NCBI GenBank assembly: GCA_031365225.1
Contig: JANLXT010000059.1
Coordinates: 1 to 46,777, forward strand
Length of the DNA stretch: 46,777 bases
Direction: 5' to 3'
DNA from: a candidate division FCPU426 bacterium
GTDB taxonomy: Bacteria; Oederibacteriota; JAJYGY01; DAIDJD01
Of this stretch, positions 3,392 through 36,632 are shown one piece after another. The position numbers and the translations under genes are program-made. The notes beneath the pieces are model-generated. The model was not told the origin of the DNA. It searched no databases and saw only the letters and a list, made by a program, of their open reading frames with translations. Positions within the stretch are counted from its first letter, which is position 1, and every line of letters starts with the position of its first letter.

Positions 3392-3394
3392 CGC

Positions 3395-4675: not shown

Positions 4676-4696
4676 CGCACCTTCGGGAGAGTCACG

Positions 4697-5233
4697 ATGG
4701 CAGAAAAAGTCTTGGTTGGCATTTTGATGGGGTCGGATAGTGACCTCGGTACGATGGCCGCGACGTGCGGCGAGCTAGAACGCTTTGGCGTGCCGTTCGA
4801 GATTCATGTCTCGTCAGCGCATCGTTCTCCCGCCAAGACCATCGCTTATGTTGACAAGGCCCAAGCGGCGGGCGTCAAAGTTTTTATATGCGCTGCAGGC
4901 GCGGCGGCTCATCTTGCCGGTGTGGTGGCGGCGCACACGATCTTGCCTGTCATCGGCGTGCCCATGTCGACGGGACCTTTGGCTGGCGCGGATTCGCTTT
5001 ACAGCACCGTGCAAATGCCCCAGGGCATTCCTGTGGCGACGGTGGCGATCGGCAAAGCGGGAGCGGCCAACGCTGGAATTTTGGCGACCCAGATCTTGGC
5101 GTTGGCGGACCCCGCCTTGGCGGCCAAGTTGAGAGCCTTCAAGACTGATCTGGCTGTCAAGGTTGAGCAAAAAGACGCCGACTTGCAATCCAAGGGCTAC
5201 AAACAATACTTGACCCAGCAGGGCGACAAGTGA
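4697..5233 (+). CDS. purE: N5-CAIR mutase
   Basis: MGSDSD, SAHRSP, AGAAAHLAG, VQMPxGIPVATV motifs. Confidence 0.97.
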   Translation: MAEKVLVGILMGSDSDLGTMAATCGELERFGVPFEIHVSSAHRSPAKTIAYVDKAQAAGVKVFICAAGAAAHLAGVVAAHTILPVIGVPMSTGPLAGADSLYSTVQMPQGIPVATVAIGKAGAANAGILATQILALADPALAAKLRAFKTDLAVKVEQKDADLQSKGYKQYLTQQGDK

Positions 5234-5682
5234 GCAGGCAGCTTCTCAACACGGTGGGTGCGCTGGCGCTGACCCTTTGTGTGGCCAGTGCGGCTTTGGC
5301 CGAAGGCGAAGCCGCCACCGTGACTTTGCGCGCGATGGACCCTGCCAGGGCACGCCAAATCGCGCTTTGGCCAGGATTTTTATTGCACGGCGCGGGCCAT
5401 CGCTACGCGGGTGACAACGAGGCGTTTTATAGCATGGTCGGTGGCGAGCTTTTTGGTGTCCTGATCGGTGGTTTTGGGGTTGGCGAGCTTTTTGGCCCAG
5501 AAGTCAAAGGTGAGCACAAAGGCACCGCGTTGGCGTTGGCGGTGACAGGTGGTTCGATGTTTTTAGGCACCTGGCTCTGGGACATTGCCTTCGCTCCACG
5601 GGCGGCTAAAAAATTCAATGACGAACGAGGGCTGGGGCTTTGGCCCACGCTCAATGGTGCCGTGCTCGTGCTGCGTTTTTAG
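5230..5682 (+). CDS. Hypothetical exported/membrane protein
   Basis: GTGA overlap with purE; signal peptide, GAGHxYAG motif, hydrophobic segments, C-terminal Phe. Confidence 0.6.
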   Translation: MSRQLLNTVGALALTLCVASAALAEGEAATVTLRAMDPARARQIALWPGFLLHGAGHRYAGDNEAFYSMVGGELFGVLIGGFGVGELFGPEVKGEHKGTALALAVTGGSMFLGTWLWDIAFAPRAAKKFNDERGLGLWPTLNGAVLVLRF

Positions 5683-22403: not shown

Positions 22404-23167
22404 GGTTGAAACGCTTTTACTTCCTCACTGTGGTGTTTGCTTGCGCACCAAGATTAGTTTGGGCAGGCGCACCTATACCCTCTGACACAAGCGGTCCAGT
22501 TTTGCAATGGCGAGTGGGCCAGGCGGTAAACTACCGAATGACAATTAAGGCACCCGGATTTGAAGATCAAGTTCGCAATACCAGATACGCTATTGTAAAA
22601 AAAGAAGATTCAGGCCAATTTTGGTTTGAAGTCAGTCAAACTAATCTCGCCGGGTCAAATATTCTGACAATTTCACGACTTGTCACGCCCACGACTGAAA
22701 CGACACTTCTAGGATCATTGATTTTCGATGGGATAGAATCTTTTGCAGCAAGTCGTGTTTTACAAAAAATTGGGAATCAAAACCCGGCGGAGCTTGCCCC
22801 TGAAATGTTTCCGCAAGGGAAAACAGCTAGCGGGATCAATGGCCTATACCAATCATTTGCAACTACCGGCAACGGATTGGTCACGACGGCAGCAGGGGCT
22901 TTTCAAGTGGTGACAATGACGGCGACATTTCATCAAAGTGCACAACCAAGTCAGCCCCCACGGAACCCTAACGCCATCGTATTAGTTCTAAGTCAGGGCG
23001 TGCCTGTTCGAGGTATTGTTCGTTACAGCTTTCCGCTCCCGCCTGATTTTTCTAGCAACGTCACAAGAACTGTCATGGTAGAAATAGATTCTATTGAGTA
23101 TTCGGCCAGTACGCGTATTTCTGGTACGCCTAGTCGCCTTCTTCCTTTTACAACACCGTCACGATGA
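22400..23167 (+). CDS. Hypothetical exported protein
   Basis: ATGA overlap with the upstream gene; signal peptide; beta-rich; V.TAAGAF motif. Confidence 0.7.
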   Translation: MRLKRFYFLTVVFACAPRLVWAGAPIPSDTSGPVLQWRVGQAVNYRMTIKAPGFEDQVRNTRYAIVKKEDSGQFWFEVSQTNLAGSNILTISRLVTPTTETTLLGSLIFDGIESFAASRVLQKIGNQNPAELAPEMFPQGKTASGINGLYQSFATTGNGLVTTAAGAFQVVTMTATFHQSAQPSQPPRNPNAIVLVLSQGVPVRGIVRYSFPLPPDFSSNVTRTVMVEIDSIEYSASTRISGTPSRLLPFTTPSR

Positions 23168-23228
23168 AGTTGCTGTACGTATTAGAATGTGTCGCGCTAT
23201 CTACGATGGCAAATCAAATGGTGCATCG

Positions 23229-26200
23229 ATGATTTTTTTAAAATTTTGCAAGAACATTCAAATTTTGAGAGAAACGAGCTATCTCGAATCCAGACTTCTG
23301 TCTTTTCTTTTATTTCTTTCACTAAACGTGCAACTTGGTCACGCACTTGCAGCTTCAGACCCATGCCCAAATGGTTGCGGTGGCGTCATTATAAGCGGTG
23401 GTGGTGGGGGTAGCGGGGGACCCACGGGTCAGCCAGCTAAGCCGGGACCGACACCCAAAACGAAAACCGATCCTCGGCTAGCGCCCTCAAAGCAACCGTG
23501 TTCTGGAGATCCAGTATCAACTGCGGACGGTACTAACTATTTCTCGGTTTCAGATTTTGACTACGCACGCGTGGCTCCGAGTTTCCCTTTGCGCTTTAGG
23601 CGTTTCTACCAAAATGGATTTTCAAGTGTTGCGGGAGAGCTTGGCGAAGGTTGGACTCATGATTATTCGACTGCATTCATTTTTGATGAAGAAAAAAATG
23701 AATATATTATGTTAGGCTCAGAAACTGGTGGTAAATTTTATGTTGATTTGACAAGCGCAGACCCCAGTTATTTGAAAGCACAGGAGGGACTATTCGCTTC
23801 GGCACGCCTTTTGCCTGCTGGAGAGATTGTAAATGGACAATGTCGTACGAACTCAAGCCCGCCAAGTTTATATACATGCAATTATGGAGAAGACTTCGTC
23901 CGAAACCTACTCTCGACACTTAACTATAACTTACCCGCCGAAATAGCTGGTTTGCTAGAAAGAGAATCCTATTACGGCGGATTGATATATACCGACAAAT
24001 TTGGAAAGGTGACATATTTTATTGCGTTAGCTCCAGGAGCGCCAAACGTCTTTGTGCCAGTATTGGAGGTCGATCGGTGGGGCAATCGCTTAAGCTATGA
24101 ATATGAATCGTACATAAGGCATCCTGGTTTTAGCTCATATTCAACCGCTTGCAATGGGGAATTTTGTGTTCCCCATATTGGTGGGAGCAATGCAATATTC
24201 GATTTACGCTTGCAACAAGTGAGTTCCTTTCCCAAGGGCAGAGATGTTGCCGATTGGCAGATTCAGTTTGAATACAAAGTGTCAAACTCGGTTCGGGATG
24301 ATCGCTATGGCTACAAGATTACGGCTGTTACAAATAGCCTTGGCGAGCGAATAGGGTTTAGTTATCTTTATAGTGAACAATTGAGTCAATATGGCCCTGA
24401 AATAATATTTGATAGTCGACCTATTATTTCTGCAATCAGGTCGGATGGCACATCAGCTAGCTACAGCTACTTTAGCCAAGATGAGCCTCTATTAGTCGCA
24501 AAAAAAGACTCGAAGGCAGAGCCGAGCGGAAGGAATTTTTCCTATGCCGTTGAGTCTTTTAGTGGAGTGGCACGGGGCACAACAAACGTAATAGATGGAA
24601 ACGGAAATTTGACAACTGAGATTGGTTTGCCATGGTCAAGTATCATTTCGAAATCTTACCCCTATGACGTTGTTACAAAAGACCATCTCGGACGCACGAC
24701 GCGCATTGATACCTATGGTTTGCAAAACCAATTACCCTATTCTGGTAACATAATTCCCATAGATGCCCCTCTTTGCCTTTCGAGCCACATTTTTTTGACA
24801 TCGGCAAATTCGTTTATCAGACGCTATGGTTATAACCAAGATGGGCTTTTGGTTGAGGAGCTCAACGATTACACCGGAATCGCCTTGCTGATGTCCTATG
24901 ACGCAAAAGGCAACTTGATCGCCCGTCAAAATACGTTCAATCAAGGTGTTGGCATCCCCGCGGAGTCTTGGACCTACGACCCGTTGAGTCGGCCATTGAG
25001 CTACGTCGATAAAAATGGTCGAACAACCTCCTATGTCTATGGGGATGGACTTAATCTTACCGAGATAAATCGCCCCCTGGGGTGGAAGAACACTTTTTTA
25101 TATGACCCCTTTGGCAAACTCATCGAGTCGATAGACGCCAATGGGCATAGAACAAAGGTTAGCTATGACGCGGCTGGCCATCTTCAGCGTTCTCAAGGTC
25201 CCGATCTTTCTATCCCGGCGACCCAGTATATCTTTGACCCCAAGGGTCGGCTCGAGTCTCAGACAGATGCTTTGGGCGCAACTATTCGTAATACTTGGAC
25301 AATCGACGGGCTCTTGGCGAGCGCCACGCTGGCAGACGGCAGTAGTGTCGTTTTTACTTACGACGCTATGCGTAATTTGATTAATAGCAAGGATGCGAAC
25401 GGGACTATCACACAGAATTTTTATGATAATTCAAATAACCTTATTCAAGTAGATTCTGCCAGCAACCGCCCGGACGCAATCAGCCAGCACTTTGAATATG
25501 ACCCTCAGAGGAACTGTACAGCTGTCATTGATGGTGCTGGCAAGAGGACAAGTTTCACCTTCAACTTGCAGGGCCTGCTTGCGAGTAGCAGTGATCCCTT
25601 GGGTAAGGGGGGAGACCTTCGTTACGATTCCAACTTAAAGCCCATCAGAAAAACGGATACCCGCGGCGTAGTCAGGACGTACACCTATTTCGGAAACGGC
25701 CGATTGAAGAAAATTAGTTTCTCGGGGGCCCCACTATCCAATCCGGCACAGCCTGTCGAGTTTACCTATGACGGAAACGGCAATCGCATTTCCATGACGG
25801 ATGGAATGGGAACGAAAACATATTCCCGCGATCTGCTTGATAGGCTGACGCACATTCACGATGCCGCGAGAAATTTTGATATTAACTACACGTTTGACTT
25901 GGTCGGCAATCGTACTGCGATGAACTATGTGATCCAAGGAAGCCTCATCGATAGCTTTGCCTACAATTTTGACGTGAGTGATCGCATGATTACAGTCACC
26001 GAGACGCGGACCGGCATGCCCTCTGAGGTTTCCGATTTCACCTATAACGCCATCAATCAAATTAGCAAGGTGCGCTATCCTAACGGAGTAGCTGAAGCTC
26101 GATATACGTATCACCCGGACAACCATCGCCTGATTGGGCAAACCAACGTCAATGAACGTGGAAGCGCACTCTCGCAATTTGACTATAGCTATGATTCTGC

Positions 26201-27497
26201 AGGGAATATCAAGACTGCCAAAGACCTTGCGGGTTTGAATATCTATAGCCTTGATTCAAAAAATCAACTTTTGGACTCCGCAACCTCAGCTGCGACAAAT
26301 AACCAAAGTTTCACCTACGATGAAGCCGGCAACCGCGTATCGTTGATCGAGTCATCGGGCAATACCTCTTACACCATCAACCAAGGCAACGAGGCTGTTG
26401 CGGTGGGTGGGCAAACAGTCACTTATGATCGGGCTGGGAATATGTTCTCGAAGAGCGGAGGGGCTGGAAGTCAGTATGGATGGGATAGCCTAAATCGTTT
26501 AGTGAAAGTAGAGAGCATCATCCCTATCCAGACCATTGCCACGTTCCAGTACGATGGCGATGGGATCCGGAGCAAAAAAGTCAATGGCGCAGGAAGTGCG
26601 ACAAATTATTTCTTCGATGGATTGCAGGTTTTGGCGGAGACAGATGCGAGCGGGATAATCAAAAAGACCTACAATCCTGGCATCTCGACCACGGATGATA
26701 AAGGCAACAAGTTTTACACGCTCGTCAACGGGCATGGGGATGTTGCGAACCTGATCGACCGTGACGGCAATATCGTGGATACCTATAGCTACGATGCCTT
26801 TGGTAAGACTATCGGGGTGGCGAAAAATTCAAACGGATTTAGATATGTGGGGCAATACGGGGTGCACAGTGACGACGACCTAGGCTTACAGTACATGTGG
26901 AATCGTTGGTATGACTCTGAGTTAGGGAGATTTATCAGCCGTGACCCTATCGGAATGGCTGGGGGATTGAACCTTTACGTATACACAGGAAATAATCCCG
27001 TGACTTATGTGGATTCGCTAGGATTGTGTGCCGATCCCAATGGTCCCGATCCTGGGTTTAACGGTCATAGTCATTGGGAGGGCTTGTTAATCGTTAGTGA
27101 CTCAAATAGCTCCGGAGACTCGGGTGGAGGCAGTGTCTTAGGCATTATTAGCTCGATTGTATCTTCGCCAGGAAATCCAAATGTACGACTTGGAATGATA
27201 CCATTTGGATTCGGGAGCCTTGGTGGCGTGGGTTTTTTTAGATCCTCAATACCTAAGTTGCCATTTAATAATAAAGTATTTGGGCAACTAATGAAGTGGG
27301 GTTCGAATAGTGCGACAGCAAGGGCTCAAATAGGAAATCTCTCTGCGGAAGTTTTGAGAAAAGCCGGGATGACTAGTAATATGGCAGAGGAATGGGCTGC
27401 ATTTTACAGAAACGAGTCACTTTTGGTACCGAGAAATCCTTCTGCGGCAGGTCGTGCAGAGTTACTGGAGGACGTAGCAAAAATGCTGCGCCAATAA
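23229..27497 (+). CDS. RHS/YD-repeat polymorphic toxin with DUF6531-like N-domain
   Basis: GDPV..ADG..RRFY..LGEGWTHDY (DUF6531-like), many YD repeats, core RWYDSELGRFISRDPIG..NLYVYTGNNPVTYVDSLGL, then a variable C-terminus; start taken as the ATG at 23229. Confidence 0.92.
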   Translation: MIFLKFCKNIQILRETSYLESRLLSFLLFLSLNVQLGHALAASDPCPNGCGGVIISGGGGGSGGPTGQPAKPGPTPKTKTDPRLAPSKQPCSGDPVSTADGTNYFSVSDFDYARVAPSFPLRFRRFYQNGFSSVAGELGEGWTHDYSTAFIFDEEKNEYIMLGSETGGKFYVDLTSADPSYLKAQEGLFASARLLPAGEIVNGQCRTNSSPPSLYTCNYGEDFVRNLLSTLNYNLPAEIAGLLERESYYGGLIYTDKFGKVTYFIALAPGAPNVFVPVLEVDRWGNRLSYEYESYIRHPGFSSYSTACNGEFCVPHIGGSNAIFDLRLQQVSSFPKGRDVADWQIQFEYKVSNSVRDDRYGYKITAVTNSLGERIGFSYLYSEQLSQYGPEIIFDSRPIISAIRSDGTSASYSYFSQDEPLLVAKKDSKAEPSGRNFSYAVESFSGVARGTTNVIDGNGNLTTEIGLPWSSIISKSYPYDVVTKDHLGRTTRIDTYGLQNQLPYSGNIIPIDAPLCLSSHIFLTSANSFIRRYGYNQDGLLVEELNDYTGIALLMSYDAKGNLIARQNTFNQGVGIPAESWTYDPLSRPLSYVDKNGRTTSYVYGDGLNLTEINRPLGWKNTFLYDPFGKLIESIDANGHRTKVSYDAAGHLQRSQGPDLSIPATQYIFDPKGRLESQTDALGATIRNTWTIDGLLASATLADGSSVVFTYDAMRNLINSKDANGTITQNFYDNSNNLIQVDSASNRPDAISQHFEYDPQRNCTAVIDGAGKRTSFTFNLQGLLASSSDPLGKGGDLRYDSNLKPIRKTDTRGVVRTYTYFGNGRLKKISFSGAPLSNPAQPVEFTYDGNGNRISMTDGMGTKTYSRDLLDRLTHIHDAARNFDINYTFDLVGNRTAMNYVIQGSLIDSFAYNFDVSDRMITVTETRTGMPSEVSDFTYNAINQISKVRYPNGVAEARYTYHPDNHRLIGQTNVNERGSALSQFDYSYDSAGNIKTAKDLAGLNIYSLDSKNQLLDSATSAATNNQSFTYDEAGNRVSLIESSGNTSYTINQGNEAVAVGGQTVTYDRAGNMFSKSGGAGSQYGWDSLNRLVKVESIIPIQTIATFQYDGDGIRSKKVNGAGSATNYFFDGLQVLAETDASGIIKKTYNPGISTTDDKGNKFYTLVNGHGDVANLIDRDGNIVDTYSYDAFGKTIGVAKNSNGFRYVGQYGVHSDDDLGLQYMWNRWYDSELGRFISRDPIGMAGGLNLYVYTGNNPVTYVDSLGLCADPNGPDPGFNGHSHWEGLLIVSDSNSSGDSGGGSVLGIISSIVSSPGNPNVRLGMIPFGFGSLGGVGFFRSSIPKLPFNNKVFGQLMKWGSNSATARAQIGNLSAEVLRKAGMTSNMAEEWAAFYRNESLLVPRNPSAAGRAELLEDVAKMLRQ

Positions 27498-27498
27498 A

Positions 27499-27729
27499 AT
27501 GAAAAACAGTCGCATAGACATTCAAAATTGCGGAACCAGCGAATTGATTTTGTTCATTGAGCCATGGGGAATAGATTACGCAGTGAAGCCAAAGGAATCA
27601 ATTGAAATTCTTTTTATTGGAGCAGAAGAGGGTACCGTGATGGTTGAGCATTTTCCTTCGAGAATAGTAGTATATGGATGGGCAGAAACTAACCTTGAAG
27701 TTCGACAAAATGGGGTACTTCTAAATTGA
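27499..27729 (+). CDS. Putative immunity protein of the RHS toxin
   Basis: 76-aa ORF starting 1 nt after the toxin stop; EPWG motif. Confidence 0.7.
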   Translation: MKNSRIDIQNCGTSELILFIEPWGIDYAVKPKESIEILFIGAEEGTVMVEHFPSRIVVYGWAETNLEVRQNGVLLN

Positions 27730-27820
27730 CCACTTTTGCAACGGATGTAAATCGCCAGCAACCCTTGGAGACTTCACCCATTTTTGATAGTCACGGGTGA
27801 GGCTTTTTCGGACGGCCGTA

Positions 27821-29193
27821 GGTTATGCAACATTTTTTGGTGTAAATTCCACCAGGGCGTAGAGCTGGCAAGTGCGGCCTAGAGGGCCGCGCTCATGTGT
27901 TTGGCGCCGTGAATGCGTTTGGTTTCCCAACGGCGCTGATGTTCGATGGAGATGGACCAGACTAGCTTCCAGACCTCTCCCTCAGCTTGCATGGCACCAG
28001 CGGGCCTCAGCCGCCGGCGCAGTTCGCGGTTAAATCGTTCGATTAAGTTGCTCGATCGTAGAGTGCTCCAGATGGCCTTGTCTTCGTTCATAAAGGTCAA
28101 GAAGCGCTCAGGATCGGCGCAGGTTAGCTCGACAGCCTTGGGATAGAACCTCTTCCAGCGACTTTGTAGCTGACCAAGAGCGATGTACGCCGACTCACGA
28201 TTCGGTGCCCAGAATATCTTTTTAAAATCCGCCATAAATTCTTTTTGGTCTTTGCCGGCAATTCGAACTCGAACGTTGTGCATCTTGTGAACAATACAAA
28301 GTTGGTGAGGCACGGCCAGCAGCTTCGAAACTGCAGCTCCGATGGCTTTGTGGTCGTCTGAGATGGCGAGCTTGATCTTTGAGGTGTCGAGTCCACGCGC
28401 TTTTAATTCTTTGATGAACGCCGACCACGAATCCTCAGACTCTCGATCACCGAGCAAAAAACCCAAGACGTGGCGTTTGCCATCAGGCGTGATGCCAATC
28501 GCCGCCAATATGGCCTGTTTGGCAGTGAACTTAGAGACCCGAACAGGTAAGTAGAGGGCATCTAAGAACAGATAGGCGATCTCGTCGGTGATAGGTCTGC
28601 CAAGCCAAGCCAGCGCTTCGGGAATGAGCTTGTTCGTGAGCACAGAGACGTCAGCGGATCGAAGCTTGGTACCAAAGGCAGAGTTGAGCTCTTGAGCCAC
28701 CGCTCTTGTGGATGTACCGCGTAGCCAGAAACGTGTCGCAAGAATACCAGCTAGATTCTTGCCAGTGCGCTTCAAGCTCTCTAAAAAGGGTGACGGTGGG
28801 TTTGCTCCGCGTAGCACTGGACGACGGAGCGTGACCGAGCTAAAGATGCCTTTAAGCCTAAAGGGCTTGTAGCCATTGCGGGACAGGGACGCGGTATCGC
28901 TGCGTTCGTGAAAATCCCGTCCCAACAGGTCAGTCTGCTCCGATAAAAGACTCCGATTTAAAGAGTCTGCCAAGGCCGCATGCATCTCAGATTCGACCAG
29001 GGCCATGACTAGACCAGGATCAAGCTCTTGTTGGATCTTGGCACGGATAAATTTACGAGTTTGCTGAGCCAGGTTTTGTGATACGCTTTTCATGGGCGTA
29101 GATCTCCGTAAAAGGGGACTGGGGTTGTGGTAAACACCAGACTACGCCCTTTTCTATTTAAACGGAACTTACACCTAGTTTTGTAGCACAACC
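27821..29193 (-). mobile_element. IS256-family insertion sequence
   Basis: Imperfect 30-bp terminal IRs (GGTTATGCAACATTTTTTGGTGTAAATTCC vs reverse complement of 29164-29193, 22/30 matches) around a transposase; no target duplication seen. Confidence 0.85.
27879..29093 (-). CDS. IS256 (mutator-type) DDE transposase
   Basis: YLFLDA, ISDD, QLCIVH, SNLIERFNRELRRR motifs. Confidence 0.92.
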   Translation of the reverse strand: MKSVSQNLAQQTRKFIRAKIQQELDPGLVMALVESEMHAALADSLNRSLLSEQTDLLGRDFHERSDTASLSRNGYKPFRLKGIFSSVTLRRPVLRGANPPSPFLESLKRTGKNLAGILATRFWLRGTSTRAVAQELNSAFGTKLRSADVSVLTNKLIPEALAWLGRPITDEIAYLFLDALYLPVRVSKFTAKQAILAAIGITPDGKRHVLGFLLGDRESEDSWSAFIKELKARGLDTSKIKLAISDDHKAIGAAVSKLLAVPHQLCIVHKMHNVRVRIAGKDQKEFMADFKKIFWAPNRESAYIALGQLQSRWKRFYPKAVELTCADPERFLTFMNEDKAIWSTLRSSNLIERFNRELRRRLRPAGAMQAEGEVWKLVWSISIEHQRRWETKRIHGAKHMSAAL

Positions 29194-29952
29194 TTGCAAG
29201 GCAAGATGGTCACGTTGGTGTTTGAGGGATTGATCCCAGTAGGGAAGGGTTATCTGGAACGAATCGGTTTTTTTGATGCCGACAAGCTGCATCCTTCCAT
29301 TGAGGTCTTACCCTATCGGTTTCGAGGGATGTCTTCGGCTATTCTTCATGACGGTCAGAGCGACAACCTGGTCGAGATACAACCTATCCGACTGGCTGAT
29401 TCCGACTGTATTGAATTTCAACCCATACCGAGTCGAATCGGTGATCGCGTACAAAAGGCCTATGATGGGCATGAACAGCAGGGGAGCGTGACTAGTTCGT
29501 GTTTCACATTGGTCGCGGAGCTTGGACAAAACATCATCCATCACAGTAATTCTGTGACGGATGGGTATGCCTCGTATCAACGGTTCCCAGCAAAAAATAC
29601 ATTTAAAGTTGCCGTCTCCGACTGCGGGGATGGAATCCTCGCCACGATCCGCCCGGCACTGGTTGAACAACGGCACAAGGATTTGTCGGACAGCAAACTG
29701 CTTCTCGAGATGCTCAATAGCGGGAAGCTGTCCCGTCTTAATGACGGTGGAGGCTCCGGACTATATTCATGTGCTAAAAATGCCTTGGCTTTTAAGGCGC
29801 AGATGTGGCTCCGGCTTCCGACCTGCAGTGCTTTCCTTCGGCCGGTCGGCCGAGCTGGCCAGCAATATGGCTTGGTCGACTTCGATGAAGGGGTCCCCTT
29901 TTTCCCGGGCACCCATGTTTCCTTCAGATACATCTTGACGCCGGCGACTTAA
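29194..29952 (+). pseudogene. Anti-sigma-type (GHKL/HATPase) kinase, probably 5'-truncated by IS256
   Basis: Frame is open from the IS end; N-box ELGQNIIHHS, G1 DCGDGI, G2 GGSGL; partial STAS-like N-part (GYLERIGFFD); could still be translated from the ATG at 29206. Confidence 0.7.
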
Positions 29953-29971
29953 TCTGCTTTACTTCATATCA

Positions 29972-30520
29972 ATGAAGCAGACGCCTACGATACAATTAAG
30001 ATCCTGCATGGACTCTGAGGTAGGGCTTAGCCGTCCAATGGGGGCCAAGTGTTACAAGCGCCTCAAGGCTGAAGTAGAGGCCAGAGGGGACGAAGACCTG
30101 TTCCGTGTATCGTTGCAAGGCGTGAAACAGACAGATACGTCCTTTCCAAAGCATGGCTTGCTGGCCTTGGCCAAGGAACTTAGAGGCAAGAAGGCGTTTT
30201 GTTTAGCTGATGCTTTCGATCAGGAGTTTCTAGAAAACTGGGGAGACGCGGCTGATGTAGCAGAGTTCCCCTTGATCGCCTGGGGTGCAAAGAGCTACAA
30301 GCTCCTAGGGCCAAAACCGGGTGGTGGTCTTGCTGAAGTGTTCGAGTTCGTGATGGGGCGAGAGGCAACTGGCGCCGCCGACCTAAAGCAAAAGTTCGGG
30401 TTCCAAGTTCCAAATGCGAGCAACAAGCTGAAAAAGCTCTTTGATCAGGGGTACGTGTGGAGACGTGTTCGCGTAGCAGGGTCCGGAGGCATAGAGCATG
30501 ACTACTTGGCCATAAAATGA
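29972..30520 (+). CDS. STAS-like + winged-HTH DNA-binding protein
   Basis: SLQGVKQTDTSF (STAS phospho-Ser-like motif, Ser57); C-terminal ADL..FG..VPNASNKLKKLFDQGYVWR wHTH. Confidence 0.75.
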   Translation: MKQTPTIQLRSCMDSEVGLSRPMGAKCYKRLKAEVEARGDEDLFRVSLQGVKQTDTSFPKHGLLALAKELRGKKAFCLADAFDQEFLENWGDAADVAEFPLIAWGAKSYKLLGPKPGGGLAEVFEFVMGREATGAADLKQKFGFQVPNASNKLKKLFDQGYVWRRVRVAGSGGIEHDYLAIK

Positions 30521-30613
30521 TTTTTTTTGGATACACCTTCATACGACTAGTGTGAAGCAGAACTGAGTAGAAGGGGATTTCCCCTAAACTAACATACGAA
30601 AGAAAAGGCAAGG

Positions 30614-31534
30614 ATGCGAAATATGACTGCTGAAACTGAAAATCTTGCCCTACCCAAGGGTATCCATCGGAGCCGTGCTCTTCCAGATGCGACTCTCGGA
30701 ACCCTTTGGGATTCGATCTTCCTCGACGAGCGGCTGAAGTCTCAACTTTTGTCACAAGCGATGTTGAACTTCACGCTTCGAGGCAAGGTTGCACGTAGCG
30801 TGATTCCATTGCACGGGGTCATCCTATTGGTCGGCCCTCCGGGCACAGGTAAGACGTCCCTCGCCCTGGGCCTAGCTAGTCGTACCGCTGAGTCGTTCAA
30901 GAGCGGCAAATTCCGCCTGCTCGAGGTTGAACCTCATATGTTGACCAGTTCAGCAATGGGCAAAACCCAGCGTGCTGTCTCAGACCTGTTCTCTCAGGCG
31001 ATAGCCGAGTCCGCTGCAAATGGGCCTACCATTGTGCTGCTCGATGAAGTTGAAACACTGGCGGCCGATCGTTCGAAGATGAGCTTAGAGGCAAACCCAG
31101 TCGATATTCATCGTGCGACCGATGCCGTATTGGTGCAGCTCGATGCTTTGGCGGAGCGGTATCCGAACCTTCTCTTCGTCGCCACCAGCAATTTCCCTCA
31201 AGCGGTCGACAGCGCGTTTACCTCTCGTTGCGATCTTGTTATGGAGATCCCGTTGCCAGATCGCCAGGCATGCAGCCAGATCTTGAAGGATTGCCTGATA
31301 GGTCTTGGCAAGGTATATCCCGCCATCGCCAAGCTGGCGATCTCTTCACAATTTGAACACTGCGCGGAAGCTTGTGTAGGGATTGATGGAAGGGCCATAC
31401 GAAAGATGGTGGCCAACGCACTCGCCAGCAGTCCCAAGACCGCGATGAATCCAGAACAGGTTTCAATCGAGAACCTGTTAGCCGCTGCCAAAACCGCAAA
31501 GGCAAGTCGCATTCCTGAAGGGAAAAGTAAATGA
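30614..31534 (+). CDS. cap6: CBASS TRIP13/Pch2-like AAA+ ATPase
   Basis: GPPGTGKT, LLDEVE, TSN, D.AF.SR.D motifs; adjacent to HORMA genes. Confidence 0.9.
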   Translation: MRNMTAETENLALPKGIHRSRALPDATLGTLWDSIFLDERLKSQLLSQAMLNFTLRGKVARSVIPLHGVILLVGPPGTGKTSLALGLASRTAESFKSGKFRLLEVEPHMLTSSAMGKTQRAVSDLFSQAIAESAANGPTIVLLDEVETLAADRSKMSLEANPVDIHRATDAVLVQLDALAERYPNLLFVATSNFPQAVDSAFTSRCDLVMEIPLPDRQACSQILKDCLIGLGKVYPAIAKLAISSQFEHCAEACVGIDGRAIRKMVANALASSPKTAMNPEQVSIENLLAAAKTAKASRIPEGKSK

Positions 31535-32007
31535 GTACCGTCGCCAGTCGCACGTTCCGGAGCAGCCCGCAGCGGGATGCGTTGCAAACTTGGACTGCGA
31601 TAGTTGAATTACTAACGCAGGGCAAGTCTAGCGTTGCTCGAACTGAATTGCTGGCGATTGGCGGAATAGCAGCAACATTAATCGCCGATCGAACCCCAAA
31701 AGATGAGGCGATAGTCGTTATTTGTGACGGTCCACGCACTCGGCTCTATTGTCTATATGACGATGAAGCTATTGAGGGATCTGATGCCAGCGAAGATGCG
31801 CTGGGTTTTGATCCTTTGAAAGGGGACTGGAACGTCTCCCTGCCTTGTGCAGCGGCCGATGTCAAATGGGTGCAAGCCGCACTCAAGAAGCATAGCAGAC
31901 GCATTGTTGCGCGTGAGAGCGGAGCGGATGTAAAGACGGCGGAAAGCAAGAACGTGTCGAAGGCTGAAGACCTCATTTTTGATCCGAAAGGGTTCCTCAA
32001 ATCATGA
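31531..32007 (+). CDS. cap8: CBASS HORMA3 protein
   Basis: [39 protein letters not shown], recognised as close to Pseudomonas HORMA3. Confidence 0.88.
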
Positions 32008-32504
32008 GCAATGTCACAGTCAATACCTACACCCACTCCGTCGTCTATGTTGCGAACAATATTCTCAAGAGCCTGAAGGATATTATTGTTCTCAGTGGCC
32101 TTGATCCTGCAAATCTTGTGGATGATTGGGCATGTAAGATGCGCGGACTTCAGACGTGGCTCACCTCGCAGCATCTAGAGCGGGTGATCCTTGAGGTCTT
32201 TGATCCCAAAACCGACGCGTTGGTCGGACGATGGGATATTGATGTCGTGTACACGATGGGCTCAGGTGACGGGGGATTCTGGACTGACACGGACCAAATC
32301 AAATATCACATTGGCAAAGCAGGACTAGTGCCAAGCGCAGCTCGCTATCGGATTTTGCTTCAGAACAAGCCTGGACGCCCAGATGTCGAAGGATGGGGAC
32401 CTGCTGAGTACAGGTCCACTGAAGGGTTTGTCCGTCAAAGTCTAGGCACTACGATTGAGCATAACGGGTTGGGCGGAAGCGCCGCTTATTGGAGGAAAAG
32501 CTAG
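32004..32504 (+). CDS. cap7: CBASS HORMA2 protein
   Basis: [35 protein letters not shown], recognised as close to Pseudomonas HORMA2. Confidence 0.88.
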
Positions 32505-33403
32505 TGTTAACCATCGACGATGCCTTTCGCAAGTTCAAGAGCCGGCTCGAGCTCAATGAGCGGGAGCAAAAGAACGCGTCCGCCCGGCAAACTGAGGTGC
32601 GGGAATATCTCGAAACAAAATTCTCAATCGAGCGCAGTTTTCTAACCGGGTCCTACGCTCGGCACACCAAAACGAAGCCTCTCAAAGACATCGACATCTT
32701 TTTCGTGATGAGCGAGTCTGAAAAGAAGTACCGGTCCAAAGCACCTTCGGTGGTGATCGGTGAATATTTTAAAGCCCTGGTTGCTAAGTATGGCGAAAAG
32801 GCCGTGCGCAAGCAAAGCCGGTCGGTCAATGTCGACTTTGGAATTGTAGCCGATGTAGACGATAATACTGACTACCGGGTGCTCAGTGTTGACGTCGTGC
32901 CGGCCTTTGAAGATGGGAAAAATTACGAGATACCTGACGACGATATCGGGAAGTGGATCAAAACGAATCCCGAGATTCATGCGGACAAGGCGACTGCGGC
33001 GCATCAGGCCTTTTCCGGTGAATGGAAGGGTTTGGTGCGAATGGTCAAATATTGGAATAACAATGCAAAGCACGGAGAAAAGCCGGTAAAACCCTCTTTC
33101 CTTATCGAGGTCATGGCTCTCCAGTGTTTGCATGGCGACTGGCAGGGTCGCTTTGACTATGAGATGCAGGCGTTTTTTTCCACCTTGGCTGATCGGATTT
33201 TAGATGAGTGGCCAGATCCCGCTGGACTAGGGCCTCCGATTAGCGCGGGGATGGATGCTACTCGCAAAGCGCGGGCTCAAAGCTTTCTTTCGGCAGCAAG
33301 TAGGGAGGCAACCATCGCTATAAATCATGCGCGCCAAGGGCGCACTGGCGAGGCTTTGACAGCTTGGCGTACATTGTTTGGATCTAAGTTCCCGCTCTCC
33401 TAG
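32504..33403 (+). CDS. cdnD: CD-NTase (CdnD-like cyclic oligonucleotide synthase)
   Basis: [16 protein letters not shown] nucleotidyltransferase motif, [15 protein letters not shown]; GTG start at 32504 after GGAGG. Confidence 0.92.
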
Positions 33404-33452: not shown

Positions 33453-34967
33453 ATGGCTGACGCCCCGACAGCTCTATGGCATGGAGGCAATTACCAAGCG
33501 CGCATCTTCTGGATGCACGCGCTAAACCTGCTTGCGCGACACACATCCGTAAGCGAGGTTACTTTTGAAGCAAATGGCCCCAAGGCTTTTGATGATGTTG
33601 TAGTCAAGTATGACCCGCCTGTGGCGCGTTCGGGACCGGAACGGGTTAGCGTCGAATATCTCCAGATCAAATGGCACGTAGAAATGGGCGGAAGGTTTGG
33701 CTACGCGGACTTTATTGATCCTGGTTTTATTGGGGCAAAGAGAGTTTCGATTTTGGAACGCCTTCAAGAAGCGCGGAAGATGGCGCCCACATCGGCCCAC
33801 TTCTTATTTTTCACCACCTACCAGATCAAGGATGGAGATCCTCTTGCTTGCCTGATTTCTGGCGTTGATAGGAGTCTCCTCGTTGGAAAGCTTTTTGATG
33901 GTTCAACTGACAGGAGCCATACAGGTCAAATCCGGGAACTATGGAGGAAACATCTTGGCCTTGCGACCGACGACGAACTCAAAGATGTAGTGATTGGTCT
34001 CAGGATATGTGCTGGGTATCACTCTCTGCAGGAACTGAGGGATGAATTGAATTATAGGGCGCAGAACGTGGGCGTTTTGGCTTGTTCGACTAATTCAGAT
34101 TTTCGCTATGATGAACTCGCACGACAGTTGAAGTCTAGGAAGTTAAACACTTTGACAAAAGCGACGATTCTTAAGCTTTTCAAGGAAGAAGGGTTGCTGG
34201 TTGAACTGGCTGCTGAAACGAATCTATTCTTGCCGATTGCAATTCGTAGCTTTTTGGGACCTGCCGCCGATATCGTAGGAGCAGCACCGGAGGATACGCT
34301 GCTTCTCACTGATGATTTTGGACAGCGCTACTTAGAGGACGGCCGGGAATGGCAGCGCGACATTCGCCCGAAGGTCGAAGCGTTCTTGCGAGCCGCAGTG
34401 AAGAAGTCTTCCAGCTTGAGACTAATTTTAGACGCGCACGCGTCCATCGCGTTTCTCTCAGGCGTTGTTTTGGATCTAAAGTCCGGCGTCAAGACATTGC
34501 TTGTCCAGAAAGGACGAATTGGATCTAGCCTTTGGCGGGCCGATGATGGCTCGGCAGATAAAGGCGGGCGTTTTGAGATCGCCACCGAAGTCATCGGCGA
34601 TGGCCAAGAAATAGCTATTTCGATTAGCGTCTCTCAGCCCACGCTGGCCCAGACGAAGGGCTACGTTGCCGGGCAGCTACTAAATGTTGGCACGGTGATC
34701 TCGTTTACCATGGCGACCGGACTGAGACAGCAAAGTGTACAGGGCGGAGAACATGCGGCAGCTTTAGCTGAGCAGATCTCCAATTGCGTACGGGAGCTGA
34801 AGGCAGATAGTCCAGACGCTATCGTGCATATTTTTGCAGCCTGTCCGAATAGCCTATTGTTTTTTCTGGGCCAACAAAACAAGGGGATTGCTCCCTGTAT
34901 CGTCTACGAATTCGATTTTGATCGGTTGGGGAACAAGAGCTATCAGCCTTCATTTGAGATTGATTGA
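33453..34967 (+). CDS. cap4: Cap4-like effector: restriction-endonuclease-fold nuclease + SAVED domain
   Basis: G.NYQARIFW, FDDVVV..YLQIKWH PD-(D/E)xK-like core; SAVED motifs AHASIAFL.G and VHIFAACPN.L.FFLGQ. Confidence 0.85.
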   Translation: MADAPTALWHGGNYQARIFWMHALNLLARHTSVSEVTFEANGPKAFDDVVVKYDPPVARSGPERVSVEYLQIKWHVEMGGRFGYADFIDPGFIGAKRVSILERLQEARKMAPTSAHFLFFTTYQIKDGDPLACLISGVDRSLLVGKLFDGSTDRSHTGQIRELWRKHLGLATDDELKDVVIGLRICAGYHSLQELRDELNYRAQNVGVLACSTNSDFRYDELARQLKSRKLNTLTKATILKLFKEEGLLVELAAETNLFLPIAIRSFLGPAADIVGAAPEDTLLLTDDFGQRYLEDGREWQRDIRPKVEAFLRAAVKKSSSLRLILDAHASIAFLSGVVLDLKSGVKTLLVQKGRIGSSLWRADDGSADKGGRFEIATEVIGDGQEIAISISVSQPTLAQTKGYVAGQLLNVGTVISFTMATGLRQQSVQGGEHAAALAEQISNCVRELKADSPDAIVHIFAACPNSLLFFLGQQNKGIAPCIVYEFDFDRLGNKSYQPSFEID

Positions 34968-35279
34968 CTTGAAAAGCGTTGTGGATATCCGTTAACCGGA
35001 GAGGATTCGGCATGTATTTTATTGGGACGTGTGTTCAAGTCCGGGTTTTAGAAAGGACGACCTCTAACTGGCTGCCGGTGGGGATCGACCTATCTGATTC
35101 GCAAAGTGTGGGGCGAGTTGTAAGTTCGAAGGAGTACTATGCAATTTTTTTGTCCGTAATGTCATTTTTTGGGAGCTACCCTCGAGGTCGCTTAGGATTC
35201 CTTGGCTCGAGGGAATTTAGAAATTGGTGATCTGAGGAATCCGAGCGGCACACTTAGAATTTCGGCTGACGGAGGGAAC

Positions 35280-36632
35280 ATGTGCGACGAACAAGGCAAT
35301 CCGGAGTTGGGACTTGAACCCATCTATTCAAATCAGATCAACCAGCCAATCACCCTATATAACGGGCCATGCGAATTGGGATTGCCGGAAAGCTCCATTT
35401 CCGCAAACGTGCATCTCTACTACGCGTGGCGTCCAAACGGCGGGCCCGAAGTAGAGGTCTTGCTTCCTAGCTTCATCCCGAGCTTGAATTTGATGAACGG
35501 ATTCTCGCTGAGGATTAGCGCCCTTGGCCTAATTTTAGGTATTACCGGAAGAAGGATGACGACTTCGACAAATGGCGTGACTAGGTTGTGGGGGCTTGTC
35601 GAGGGCCGCCTTAGGTATGGCCAGCAAACGGGTTTAACGAAGATGAAATTTCACGTCGTAAACTTTCAGGCGGTGCGTGGGGCTCACCTACGCCGAGGCA
35701 ACAACCGAATCGCTGGCAGAATAGAACTTGCAAATGCGAATTGGAGAATTCAGGTCGATCCAGTTGAAGGGCATGGGATCAACCAAGAATTCAGCCAAAC
35801 ACTGGACGACACAAAGGGGTACGGAATAACCCACATCGGGTGTATCTCGAAAAATGATAATTCCGAATTTTCCGCCGATGATTGCGAGCCCCTTCTTGTT
35901 GCGCTAGGGAAGACGCTTAGTTTTGCGGGTGCCGTGTACACCTACCCAATCCTTTGGTGCGGCTATTCCCAGACAGGTACCATAGTGTTTCGTGATTGGT
36001 CCCGCTGCAGAATCGATGCCTACCAGAACAACACAACTTGGTTCTCCGGATCACCACCTCTCGGGCTTCAAGAGGTATTTAATGGTTGGCTGCAACTTTC
36101 GAGCCATCCGGACTATGAAACGATTGTTGCGGCATGGGGCATGTACATGGATTCCCACTCACCGAGCGTATCTCAAGAATCCGAGCTGGTGATCGCACAG
36201 GCGGCCTTGGAAGGGATTGAGACCGGCTGGAATTTTCCCCCAATGAACAATTTTACCACTGCCCCAGTATTCAACCCGTCCGCCACTGCGGCAGATAGGA
36301 TTTGGTCTGTCGCAAATTCTTTGGGGATGGCACCAACCGCACCACAACATTTTGTGCAGCTAAATGCGCTAGCGCATCCTACCCCTAACGCTCCGGTCTT
36401 GGAGAAGGTGACATGGGTTCGCAACTCCATAGCCCATCTTGGTAACTACCCTAGACTGGCAAATCAACATGATCTCGTCGTCTATGAATCTTGGCTCTAT
36501 GCAGTGTGGTTGCTAGAGCTGGCCCTCCTTCGGCTACTAGATTTTCCGGGCCCCTATCAAAATCGAATCGCTGTCCAGCACCACGTCCAGGTTGAACCAG
36601 TTCCTTGGATTCGGATCCCGCAGGGGCCCTAA
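35280..36632 (+). CDS. Hypothetical protein with C-terminal HEPN-type RxxxxH motif (ApeA/YopA-like)
   Basis: GGAGGG SD before the ATG at 35280; FHVVNF, GYGITHIG, LSFA; RNSIAH near the C-terminus. Confidence 0.65.
   Translation: MCDEQGNPELGLEPIYSNQINQPITLYNGPCELGLPESSISANVHLYYAWRPNGGPEVEVLLPSFIPSLNLMNGFSLRISALGLILGITGRRMTTSTNGVTRLWGLVEGRLRYGQQTGLTKMKFHVVNFQAVRGAHLRRGNNRIAGRIELANANWRIQVDPVEGHGINQEFSQTLDDTKGYGITHIGCISKNDNSEFSADDCEPLLVALGKTLSFAGAVYTYPILWCGYSQTGTIVFRDWSRCRIDAYQNNTTWFSGSPPLGLQEVFNGWLQLSSHPDYETIVAAWGMYMDSHSPSVSQESELVIAQAALEGIETGWNFPPMNNFTTAPVFNPSATAADRIWSVANSLGMAPTAPQHFVQLNALAHPTPNAPVLEKVTWVRNSIAHLGNYPRLANQHDLVVYESWLYAVWLLELALLRLLDFPGPYQNRIAVQHHVQVEPVPWIRIPQGP

What the first reader, a model, noticed from the sequence alone, without database searches (positions are those of the whole stretch)
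29194..30613. Anti-sigma-type kinase + STAS-wHTH pair sitting directly upstream of CBASS
Seen: a GHKL/HATPase ORF (ELGQNIIHHS, DCGDGI, GGSGL) followed by a protein that fuses a STAS-like domain (DTSF, Ser57) to a winged HTH. Both are co-directional with, and 93 nt upstream of, the CBASS operon. Established: SpoIIAB/RsbW kinases phosphorylate a Ser at the equivalent position of STAS anti-anti-sigma factors (SpoIIAA Ser58), and CBASS loci often carry dedicated regulators (CapW, CapH/CapP). Inference: a partner-switch module rewired so that phosphorylation of a DNA-binding STAS protein, rather than sigma release, gates immune-operon transcription. I recall a similar pair being reported recently as CapK/CapS but cannot verify that here, so novelty needs a literature check.
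Basis: partly seen in the sequence, partly recalled or inferred. Interest (0 to 1): 0.8.

Follow-up and report, generated by a model that had tools for sequence, protein, structure and literature searches.

The report
IS-truncated CapK/CapS regulator of CBASS
This is a copy of the recently published CapK kinase / CapS repressor pair that switches on a phage-defence operon after DNA damage, but here a mobile element has cut off the front of the kinase gene, so it is a decayed example of a known system.

Summary
Window 29972-30520 encodes a full-length CapS (STAS + winged HTH). It matches the solved CapS structures 9Z72 and 9Z71 at E 8.5e-28 and 4.2e-24, and keeps the phospho-acceptor Ser57 and the DNA-contact residues. 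Window 29195-29952 is the 3' part of capK, an anti-sigma-type GHKL kinase. It is 31% identical to the experimentally studied E. roggenkampii CapK (E 2e-19), and active-site Asn113 aligns with N218. CapK/CapS was described by Chambers et al. (EMBO J 2026). Their Dataset EV2 already lists 6 capKS loci upstream of type III CBASS, the type found here: TRIP13, two HORMA proteins, a CD-NTase and a nuclease-SAVED effector.

The right end of a 1375-bp IS256-family element lies at 29194. A 95%-identical 317-aa ortholog (P0155) shows that 65 N-terminal residues are missing, which is half of the STAS sensor domain. The capK promoter region is gone too, and the missing part is nowhere else in the genome.

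capS keeps a conserved promoter inside the capK 3' end and operator-like TTCA/TGAA sites.

Most likely (about 60%, inferred) the kinase is dead and CBASS stays under non-inducible CapS repression.

The parts
27820..29194 (.). IS256/Mutator-family insertion sequence, 1375 bp. The transposase gene is 27879-29093 on the minus strand. The terminal inverted repeats are 27820-27850 and 29164-29194.
   Evidence: Pfam Transposase_mut scores E 4.2e-66 over profile positions 29-377 of 379. The inverted repeats are 31 nt and 74% complementary. The left end is confirmed by a solo copy in contig C163 that matches IS positions 1-30. The right end is confirmed by a second Logan contig that matches 29159-29194 and diverges right after 29194. 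No 8- or 9-bp target duplication is present: the flanks are ACGGCCGT on the left and TGCAAGGC on the right (read).
29195..29952 (+). capK remnant. It corresponds to codons 66-317 of an HTH-less STAS-GHKL kinase. It holds the C-terminal half of the STAS domain and a complete GHKL domain (N113, D143xGxG147, G187xG189). The stop codon TAA is at 29950-29952.
   Evidence: BLASTP to the 317-aa ortholog P0155 gives 239/252 identical, with window residues 1-252 matching P0155 residues 66-317. BLASTP to E. roggenkampii CapK gives E 2e-19, with window residues 3-248 matching residues 121-365. All 10 invariant family columns in the retained part are kept. The frame is closed by a TAG inside the IS.
29935..29963 (+). 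Candidate capS promoter P1 inside the capK 3' end. The -35 is TTGACG (29935-29940), the spacer is 17 nt, and the -10 is TTTACT (29958-29963).
   Evidence: CTTGAC, AATCTGCT and TGAAG are invariant in the alignment of the window with 4 capK-capS junctions from Chloroflexota and Thermodesulfobacteriota MAGs (A5). The tool's own sigma-70 scan did not report it, because its rule requires an A at position 2 of the -10.
29962..29981 (+). Operator-like site 1, overlapping the capS start. It consists of CTTCA (29962-29966), a narrow palindrome-like ATCA-A-TGAA (29968-29976) and TGAAGCAGA (29973-29981).
   Evidence: The 9-mer TGAAGCAGA occurs only twice in the 46.8-kb window, here and in site 2. The expected count is 0.48, and 8 of 100 shuffles reach 2. 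The position corresponds to the E. roggenkampii 'narrow palindrome' between capK and capS (A5). Binding has not been tested.
29972..30520 (+). capS: a STAS + winged-HTH repressor of 182 aa. Ser57 is the phospho-acceptor. N148, K154 and G172-G173 are the DNA-contact positions.
   Evidence: phmmer against the PDB hits 9Z72 (V. cholerae CapS) at E 8.5e-28 over residues 6-181 and 9Z71 (E. roggenkampii CapS) at E 4.2e-24. The paper identifies these PDB codes. BLASTP to WP_001567865.1 gives 32% identity and E 3e-32, with S54/N145/K151/G169-170 aligned to S57/N148/K154/G172-173.
30521..30561 (+). T-run (30521-30528) followed by operator-like site 2: TTCA (30538-30541), 11 nt, then TGAA (30553-30556), within TGAAGCAGA (30553-30561).
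   Evidence: In alignment A6 the site is positionally homologous to the experimentally defined E. roggenkampii wide palindrome TTAA-N10-TTAA (paper). Four of 5 relatives have TTCA-N10-TGAA, and L019 has TTCA-N10-TAAA. The window has one extra base in the spacer.
30614..31534 (+). CBASS TRIP13-like AAA+ ATPase
   Evidence: PADLOC TRIP13 scores E 1e-148 over profile positions 4-300 of 302. Pfam AAA scores 5.5e-22.
31531..32007 (+). CBASS HORMA protein
   Evidence: PADLOC HORMA PDLC00881 scores E 4e-71 over profile positions 1-157 of 157.
32004..32504 (+). CBASS second HORMA protein (bacHORMA_2)
   Evidence: Pfam PF18173 scores E 3.9e-85 over profile positions 1-165 of 166.
32489..33403 (+). CD-NTase (SMODS) cyclase
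   Evidence: PADLOC Cyclase PDLC00809 scores E 1.3e-146. Pfam SMODS scores 3e-21.
33453..34967 (+). Effector: endonuclease (PD-DExK type by the PADLOC model name) fused to a SAVED sensor
   Evidence: PADLOC Effector PDLC00737 scores E 6e-190 over its full length. Pfam SAVED scores 4.9e-34.

Best explanation
The locus is a CapK/CapS transcriptional control module placed in front of a complete type III CBASS operon, inside a low-GC island.

In intact systems the published mechanism is as follows. The CapS dimer binds palindromic operators at its own promoter and at the downstream operon's promoter, and represses both. Single-stranded DNA made during DNA repair activates CapK. CapK then phosphorylates one Ser on the CapS STAS domain, the dimer falls apart, and the operon is de-repressed.

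In this window an IS256-family element ends at base 29194, inside codon 66 of capK. The first 65 codons are gone. By the model of a full-length relative, these encode strand 1, helix 1, strand 2 and helix 2 of the STAS domain. Whatever lay upstream is gone too, including the capK promoter. There is no target-site duplication, so the loss came with an IS-associated deletion or rearrangement, not a simple insertion.

Several parts are untouched:
- the GHKL catalytic domain;
- capS;
- a conserved promoter for capS that lies in the capK 3' end;
- the operator-like sites;
- all five CBASS genes.

Shown: the identity of the parts, the truncation and the breakpoint.

Inferred at about 60%: the remnant kinase is not made, or cannot sense ssDNA. 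CapS would then stay unphosphorylated, and CBASS would be held at the basal, CapS-repressed level and no longer be boosted by DNA damage.
For: CapS identity:
- It matches the solved CapS structures at E 8.5e-28 and 4.2e-24.
- S57, N148, K154 and G172-G173 align with the functionally tested S54, N145, K151 and G169-G170.

CapK identity:
- BLASTP to WP_001567866.1 gives E 2e-19 and aligns N113 with N218. That gene lies directly upstream of the CapS accession named in the paper.
- The fold is nearest to SpoIIAB, RsbW and UsfX, with Z 13.3-10.8 in the top 9 rows.

Synteny: a GHKL ORF of 308-389 aa lies directly upstream of capS in all 9 loci inspected, 5 plasmid loci and 4 MAG loci.

Truncation:
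- The ortholog P0155 is 317 aa, and the window equals its residues 66-317 at 95% identity.
- All 100 homologues of 285-400 aa have at least 44 residues (median 69.5) before the point where the window copy starts.
- The frame is closed by a TAG inside the IS.
- The IS ends are defined.
- One Logan contig of 6370 nt spans 27400-30700 with 0 differences.
- The 5' part is not found elsewhere in the 346 contigs, using P0002 or P0155.

What the lost part does:
- In the AF2 model of full-length P0002 (pLDDT 93.5), residues 1-66 are E3-8, H17-31, E38-43 and H51-66.
- In the paper, ssDNA is predicted to bind between the STAS and GHKL domains. W68A, which lies in the region missing here, abolishes activation. 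Deleting capK abolishes induction.

capS independence: a conserved TTGAC-N17 promoter and operator-like sites are present.

No sigma-70-like promoter was found between the IS and capK.
Against: The functional consequence is inference only, and there are no expression data.

The remnant ORF is still open for 252 codons. It keeps all 10 invariant family positions that lie in the retained part. It has diverged from its ortholog no faster than capS has: 12 of 252 differences against 9 of 160. So it may be recent, or still used.

An in-frame ATG at 29206 is preceded by AAGG, so translation is possible.

The closest orthologs (P0155, P0002, P0006) lack the Trp that corresponds to E. roggenkampii W68. 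The sensor details may therefore differ in this clade.

The promoter scan is conservative, since it also missed the conserved capS promoter.

Operator site 2 has an 11-nt spacer where relatives have 10.

The spanning Logan contig comes from the run that is probably the source of the assembly, so it is not independent.
Confidence: 0.8

Rival explanations
1. The remnant kinase is still expressed, for example from an outward promoter of the IS or by read-through. Having lost the STAS half that gates it, it would phosphorylate CapS without needing ssDNA. CapS would then be kept off the DNA, and CBASS would be constitutively de-repressed.
For: The GHKL domain is complete and all invariant residues are kept. 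The ORF is intact, with no excess divergence relative to capS. An ATG at 29206 has an AAGG 4 nt upstream (read). The AF2 model of the fragment is confident over the kinase domain. The paper's ΔHTH CapK remained functional, which shows some tolerance to N-terminal deletion.
Against: No promoter-like site was found upstream. The transposase gene points the other way. The deletion removes four secondary-structure elements of a single domain, which usually destabilises the domain. In the paper a point mutation in this region (W68A) kills activity and does not free it.
Confidence: 0.13
2. The IS-capK junction is an assembly chimera or a minority allele. Under this reading, the organism's main genotype has an intact capK.
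For: The genome is a 346-contig metagenome-assembled genome. Related IS ends with other flanks exist in the same sample and in other sediment metagenomes. No target-site duplication flanks the IS.
Against: A separately built Logan contig (6370 nt, depth 8.3) crosses both IS junctions with 0 differences, and no alternative joint was reported. The capK 5' part is absent from the rest of the assembly even when searched with a 95%-identical query. Only one full IS copy is present in the assembly, so there is no repeat to mis-join.
Confidence: 0.05
3. The pair is a classical anti-sigma / anti-anti-sigma partner switch (SpoIIAB-SpoIIAA or RsbW-RsbV type) that controls a sigma factor and is unrelated to CBASS.
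For: The kinase fold is nearest to SpoIIAB, RsbW and UsfX. A Ser sits at the SpoIIAA Ser58-equivalent position.
Against: The STAS protein carries a wHTH with the CapS DNA-contact residues and is a full-length homologue of the CapS crystal structures. None of the 9 neighbouring ORFs scanned matches a sigma factor family. The kinase family is found upstream of capS and immune operons.
Confidence: 0.01

Closest known systems
CapK + CapS (Chambers, Rani, Min, Villa, Corbett; EMBO J 2026, PMC13373217; bioRxiv 10.64898/2026.02.02.703251)
   Same: The gene order capK-capS-immune operon is the same. CapS is a full-length homologue of the solved structures, with the phospho-Ser and DNA-contact residues. 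The kinase has the GHKL domain with the catalytic Asn. There are two operator-like sites at positions equivalent to those in E. roggenkampii. Association with type III CBASS is already listed 6 times in Dataset EV2.
   Different: capK is 5'-truncated by an IS, with 65 residues lost. Even the intact ortholog (317 aa) lacks the N-terminal HTH that the paper gives as part of CapK, as does the 313-aa Sphingobium herbicidovorans plasmid CapK. The candidate half-site is TTCA/TGAA, not TTAA, and the wide spacing is 11 nt, not 10. The ATG start used by capS in the relatives aligns with ACG in the window, whose capS ORF instead opens at an ATG five codons upstream with no Shine-Dalgarno sequence. The host belongs to a lineage in which 0 of 60 related genomes carry a CapK homologue.
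VapK-VapS-VapC toxin-antitoxin system (same paper, section read)
   Same: VapK is also an HTH-less STAS-GHKL kinase of about the same size as the intact ortholog here.
   Different: VapS has a STAS domain plus a short C-terminal tail and no wHTH, and it is followed by a PIN-domain VapC. Here the STAS protein has a wHTH, and a CBASS operon follows with no PIN gene.
SpoIIAB-SpoIIAA, RsbW-RsbV and UsfX-RsfB partner-switching modules
   Same: The kinase fold matches (Z 13.3-10.8). A STAS-domain substrate has a Ser at the equivalent helix position.
   Different: The output is DNA binding by the substrate itself, not release of a sigma factor. The kinase carries its own STAS domain. There is no sigma factor gene nearby.
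CapW and CapH+CapP, the other DNA-damage-responsive regulators of CBASS and other immune operons (as described in the paper)
   Same: They occupy the same place in the locus and have the same logic: a repressor is released when ssDNA or DNA damage is sensed.
   Different: The proteins and chemistry are unrelated (ligand binding for CapW, proteolysis for CapH+CapP), whereas this system uses phosphorylation.

Membership tests
CapS | N-terminal STAS domain fused to a C-terminal winged HTH, about 180 aa | tested here: met
   phmmer aligns window residues 6-181 with chain residues 9-184 of 9Z72 (E 8.5e-28), and residues 21-178 with 9Z71 (E 4.2e-24). The paper gives the STAS domain as residues 1-111 and the wHTH as 112-184 of that structure.
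CapS | Absolutely conserved phospho-acceptor Ser on the STAS domain (E. roggenkampii S54, V. cholerae S58) | tested here: met
   Ser57 aligns with S54 in BLASTP against WP_001567865.1. It is invariant in the 4-sequence alignment A4.
CapS | Conserved DNA-contact residues N145, K151 and G169-G170 | tested here: met
   N148, K154 and G172-G173 align with them and are invariant in A4.
CapS | Binds palindromic operators at its own promoter and at the downstream operon's promoter | tested here: inconclusive
   Candidate TTCA/TGAA sites lie at the positionally equivalent places. The wide site has an 11-nt spacer, not 10. No binding assay is possible with these tools.
CapK | GHKL kinase domain with the catalytic Asn (E. 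roggenkampii N218) | tested here: met
   N113 aligns with N218. E109, N113, H117, D143, G147 and G189 are invariant family columns that the window keeps. The fold is nearest to SpoIIAB.
CapK | Complete STAS domain N-terminal to the kinase domain, forming the ssDNA groove | tested here: not met
   Only residues equivalent to 66-317 of the 317-aa ortholog remain. The lost part holds 2 strands and 2 helices of the STAS domain in the model of P0002.
CapK | Conserved aromatic residue for ssDNA stacking (W68; F54 in VapK) | tested here: not met
   The region is deleted in the window. The column is W in 82 of 100 homologues, but it is G or S in the closest ones, P0155, P0002 and P0006.
CapK | N-terminal HTH domain | tested here: not met
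   It is absent from the intact 317-aa ortholog and from the roughly 305-aa length class. The paper found no phenotype for ΔHTH.
CapK | Gene immediately followed by capS, usually upstream of an immune operon | tested here: met
   There are 19 nt between the capK stop and the capS ATG, and CBASS begins 93 nt further on.
Type III CBASS | CD-NTase plus HORMA and TRIP13 accessory proteins and a nucleotide-activated effector | tested here: met
   All five proteins match PADLOC or Pfam models over essentially their full length.
SpoIIAB/SpoIIAA-type partner switch | Kinase sequesters a sigma factor, with a sigma gene in the operon | tested here: not met
   None of the 9 neighbouring ORFs scanned matched a sigma factor family. 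The substrate carries a DNA-binding domain instead.
IS256 family insertion sequence | Mutator-type DDE transposase, terminal inverted repeats, and an 8-9 bp target duplication (the duplication length is recalled, not from a call) | tested here: inconclusive
   The transposase and inverted repeats are present. No direct repeat flanks the element, which fits an adjacent deletion or recombination and not a simple insertion.

The most novel reading that the evidence does not exclude
The IS has produced a natural 'sensor-less' CapK. The GHKL core with half a STAS domain would still be made and would phosphorylate CapS without ssDNA gating. [quoted passage not shown] The intact ORF and its normal rate of divergence are what keep this reading alive.
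Probability: 0.12. Interest if true: 0.45.

Novelty: new member of a known kind. Interest (0 to 1): 0.2.

Why it matters
The find adds little that is new in kind. The regulator pair, its mechanism and its association with type III CBASS are in print.

Three smaller points are useful.

- It is a clear natural case of a mobile element removing the damage sensor of an immune-operon regulator while sparing the repressor and the operon. This is one way a costly abortive-infection system can be silenced without being lost.
- Together with four MAG loci and one Sphingobium plasmid, it indicates that the two-operator layout found in E. roggenkampii is conserved with another half-site. The wide site has half-sites 10 bp apart and follows a T-run after capS. 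In these lineages the half-site is TTCA/TGAA. These loci come from Chloroflexota, Thermodesulfobacteriota and Alphaproteobacteria.
- It shows that HTH-less kinases pair with wHTH-bearing CapS, not only with VapS.

Tried and rejected
Complex prediction. The result was 'no answer': the score was 0.69, but one control scored 0.53. It is evidence neither for nor against binding.

Locus searches.
- The single CapK fragment found nothing in genome contigs.
- The CapS alignment A4 then gave 4 loci.
- The metagenome scan with CapS gave 5 loci that match only the wHTH part, residues 120-182. These were not analysed further.
- The 18.4-kb contig with the intact ortholog did not appear there.

Relatives: 0 of 60 related genomes had a CapK homologue, so no syntenic intact locus was available from kin.

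Other sediment runs (X2-X4) hold only pieces of the IS and nothing of capK. This says nothing about habitat.

The sigma-70 scan of 27700-30700 found 0 sites. It is too strict to count as absence.

The 47 of 149 HMMER hits shorter than 285 aa were considered as possible natural short forms. They were set aside because they open at conserved internal Met residues and look like contig-edge or mis-called fragments. Two hits longer than 400 aa were also left out of the 100-sequence count.

Full report
**What is there**

ORF listing and reading of 28.9-30.9 kb confirm two co-directional ORFs. The second is 29972-30520, 182 aa, with TDTSFP and Ser57. A five-gene operon follows after 93 nt. Pfam and PADLOC identify the operon as a complete type III CBASS:
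- TRIP13-like ATPase, 30614-31534;
- two HORMA proteins, 31531-32007 and 32004-32504;
- CD-NTase, 32489-33403;
- endonuclease-SAVED effector, 33453-34967.

The two regulators are almost invisible to curated libraries. HATPase_c scores E 0.046, below its cut-off. The second ORF has no Pfam or PADLOC family, and only weak NCBIfam hits appear.

**Literature**

A full-text search found the system at once: Chambers et al., EMBO J 2026 (PMC13373217; preprint February 2026). I read the abstract, Results sections 7-13, the Discussion, the bioinformatics methods and the data-availability section. [quoted passage not shown]

The paper defines CapK as HTH-STAS-GHKL and CapS as STAS-wHTH. Its main findings are:
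- CapS is a dimeric repressor that binds a 'narrow' TTAA-N1-TTAA site between capK and capS and a 'wide' TTAA-N10-TTAA site before the downstream operon.
- ssDNA-activated CapK phosphorylates CapS S54, which dissociates the dimer and de-represses transcription.
- Deleting capK abolishes induction.
- W68A abolishes ssDNA activation.
- Deleting the HTH has no phenotype.

Of 443 capK loci, 75 precede CBASS. Dataset EV2 lists 6 as 'CBASS Type III', two in Mesorhizobium and four in Bradyrhizobium. A second search for CapK + CapS + CBASS found 5 papers, 3 of them listed, and the two titles I opened are by the Corbett group.

**Membership of CapS**

phmmer against PDB sequences hits 9Z72 (E 8.5e-28, residues 6-181) and 9Z71 (E 4.2e-24). 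The paper identifies these as V. cholerae and E. roggenkampii CapS.

I located the paper's own E. roggenkampii pair on an IncHI2A plasmid. WP_001567865.1 is named in the paper as CapS, and WP_001567866.1 lies directly upstream of it.

BLASTP of window CapS against that CapS gives 32% identity and E 3e-32. S57, N148, K154 and G172-G173 align with S54, N145, K151 and G169-G170.

**Membership of CapK**

BLASTP of the window kinase ORF against WP_001567866.1 (368 aa) gives 31% identity and E 2e-19. Window residues 3-248 match residues 121-365, N113 aligns with the catalytic N218 and K134 with K239.

An exhaustive HMMER search found 222 representative proteins at E <= 1e-3. They fall into two length classes, about 305 aa and about 365 aa. 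The longer class carries the HTH.

The AF2 model of the window ORF has pLDDT 90.3. Re-ranked by VIA-align, it has SpoIIAB, RsbW and UsfX as its top 9 rows, with Z from 13.3 to 10.8, and GyrB, topoisomerase VI and CheA at Z 9.6 or below. Foldseek's own order had put topoisomerase VI-B and CheA first. The 'anti-sigma-type' label is therefore justified.

**The kinase gene is decapitated**

Directly upstream, on the other strand, is a Mutator/IS256-family transposase at 27879-29093 (Pfam E 4.2e-66). It is flanked by 31-nt inverted repeats at 27820-27850 and 29164-29194.

The kinase frame is closed by a TAG inside the right repeat. Its 'TTG start' uses the last IS base.

The right IS end at 29194 is independently marked. 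A second contig in run X1 matches 29159-29194 and then diverges.

Cluster look-up gave the decisive comparison. The window ORF's 90%-identity cluster contains P0155, a 317-aa protein. It lies on a contig of 18,401 nt, the same length as the contig that carries a 94%-identical CapS (P0003). The window ORF equals P0155 residues 66-317, with 239 of 252 residues identical. So 65 residues are missing.

All 100 HMMER hits of 285-400 aa have at least 44 residues (median 69.5) before that point. For this count, 47 shorter hits and 2 longer hits among the 149 were left out.

In the AF2 model of the full-length relative P0002 (pLDDT 93.5), the missing stretch forms strand 3-8, helix 17-31, strand 38-43 and helix 51-66. 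That is half of the STAS domain.

The flanks of the IS show no target duplication, and the left flank belongs to an RHS-like cassette. The 5' part was therefore removed by a deletion or rearrangement.

The 5' part is not found anywhere else in the 346-contig genome, which is 98% complete. I searched with P0002 and with the 95%-identical P0155.

One Logan contig of 6370 nt crosses 27400-30700 without a difference, and no alternative joint was reported. That run is probably the source of the assembly, so the support is not independent.

**What is left intact**

The remnant keeps every invariant family position that lies in the retained part. It differs from its ortholog at 12 of 252 positions, against 9 of 160 for CapS. 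Decay has therefore not begun, or the piece is still constrained.

I aligned the capK-capS junction with four loci found with a CapS alignment. These come from two Ktedonobacteraceae MAGs, one Chloroflexota MAG and one Thermodesulfobacteriota MAG. The alignment shows an invariant CTTGAC, a 17-nt spacer ending in AATCTGC, a -10-like hexamer and an invariant TGAAG (A5).

In the window this puts a promoter at 29935-29963, inside the retained capK 3' end. capS and CBASS therefore do not depend on the lost upstream region.

The relatives' Shine-Dalgarno sequence (GAAGGAG) corresponds to GAAGCAG in the window. Their ATG corresponds to ACG. The window capS ORF opens at an ATG five codons upstream, at about the predicted transcript start.

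Downstream of capS, all loci have a T-run followed by a palindrome (A6). Four of 5 relatives have TTCA-N10-TGAA, and L019 has TTCA-N10-TAAA. It sits exactly where E. roggenkampii has its experimentally defined TTAA-N10-TTAA. The window has TTCA-N11-TGAA at 30538-30556.

The 9-mer TGAAGCAGA occurs in the window only at these two sites.

These are candidate operators. Binding was not tested.

**Neighbourhoods**

CapS tblastn hit 41 plasmid records, and the CapK relative P0002 hit 39. In the 5 plasmid loci and 4 MAG loci I opened, a GHKL ORF of 308-389 aa always lies directly upstream of capS.

The Sphingobium plasmid CapK is 313 aa, so HTH-less kinases do pair with wHTH-bearing CapS.

In L018 the pair precedes a TRIP13 fragment and an HNH-SAVED effector.

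None of 60 related genomes has a CapK homologue. The region 22-36 kb has 47-53% GC against about 58% outside it. The locus therefore sits in an acquired island.

**How it most likely works now**

Shown: the identity of all parts, the breakpoint and the loss of 65 residues plus upstream DNA.

Inferred: the remnant has no detectable promoter (the scan is conservative). It has also lost half of the domain that, in the published model, forms the ssDNA groove with the kinase domain.

The published capK deletion and W68A phenotypes predict loss of induction. I therefore put about 60% on a dead kinase, with CBASS held at basal level under CapS repression. I put about 13% on a still-active, ungated kinase. 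The rest goes to intermediate outcomes or artefact.

A complex prediction of the remnant with CapS gave no verdict and is not used.

**Verdict**

This is a correct observation and a correct recall of a published system. It is a new, IS-damaged member of a known kind, and its interest is low.

Noticed in passing
window 35202-36632 (+): A 476-aa ORF lies 235 nt downstream of the CBASS effector. It has no Pfam, PADLOC or NCBIfam match. The protein-atlas feature search places it nearest to YopA_M/YopA_C and ApeA/HEPN-like clusters (score 0.98). It may be another defence gene. This is a lead only.
   Followed up: partly
window 18363-27497 and 27499-27729: Two very large ORFs (1346 and 1467 aa) are followed by a 76-aa ORF directly left of the IS. 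By eye they look like RHS/YD-repeat toxins with a small immunity gene. This was not tested against any library. Together with capKS-CBASS they lie in a low-GC stretch.
   Followed up: no
L006 (own genome contig C163) 1132-1170: A solo copy of the IS left end, about 40 bp and 93% identical over 30 bp, lies right after another RHS-like C-terminus and small ORF, and before an argininosuccinate-synthase-like gene. It may be a trace of earlier IS activity next to a second RHS cassette.
   Followed up: partly
window 29972-29989: The ATG used by capS in four related loci corresponds to ACG in the window. The window ORF opens at an ATG five codons upstream, which overlaps the operator-like site, has no Shine-Dalgarno sequence and lies about 9 nt after the -10. 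The transcript may be leaderless or poorly translated. The gene call for the 94%-identical relative starts at Met23 instead.
   Followed up: partly
L018 (Thermodesulfobacteriota MAG contig) 1103-4282: capK (308 aa) and capS are followed by only a 149-aa TRIP13 fragment and an HNH-SAVED effector, with no HORMA or CD-NTase between them. It looks like a decayed type III CBASS behind an intact regulator, the mirror image of the window.
   Followed up: partly
L016 (Acinetobacter johnsonii plasmid pXBB1-8) 7555-11721: Two ISAba1 copies bracketing two unrelated genes sit between capS and the E2/ThiF (Bub-type) genes it would regulate. This is another case of IS disruption of a capKS-controlled locus.
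   Followed up: no
L019 (Ktedonobacteraceae MAG) 4247-5485: A 412-aa HTH + M78-peptidase protein lies two genes upstream of capK. It matches the PADLOC RmrA, capP and capH models. Two different damage-type regulators sit side by side there.
   Followed up: no
L022 (own genome contig C124) 1420-2331 (-): A 303-aa ORF is distantly similar to the CapK GHKL part (E 0.002, 32% identity over residues 174-310 of P0155). It lies between an MraY-like membrane transferase and an amine-oxidase-like gene, with no STAS partner next to it.
   Followed up: no
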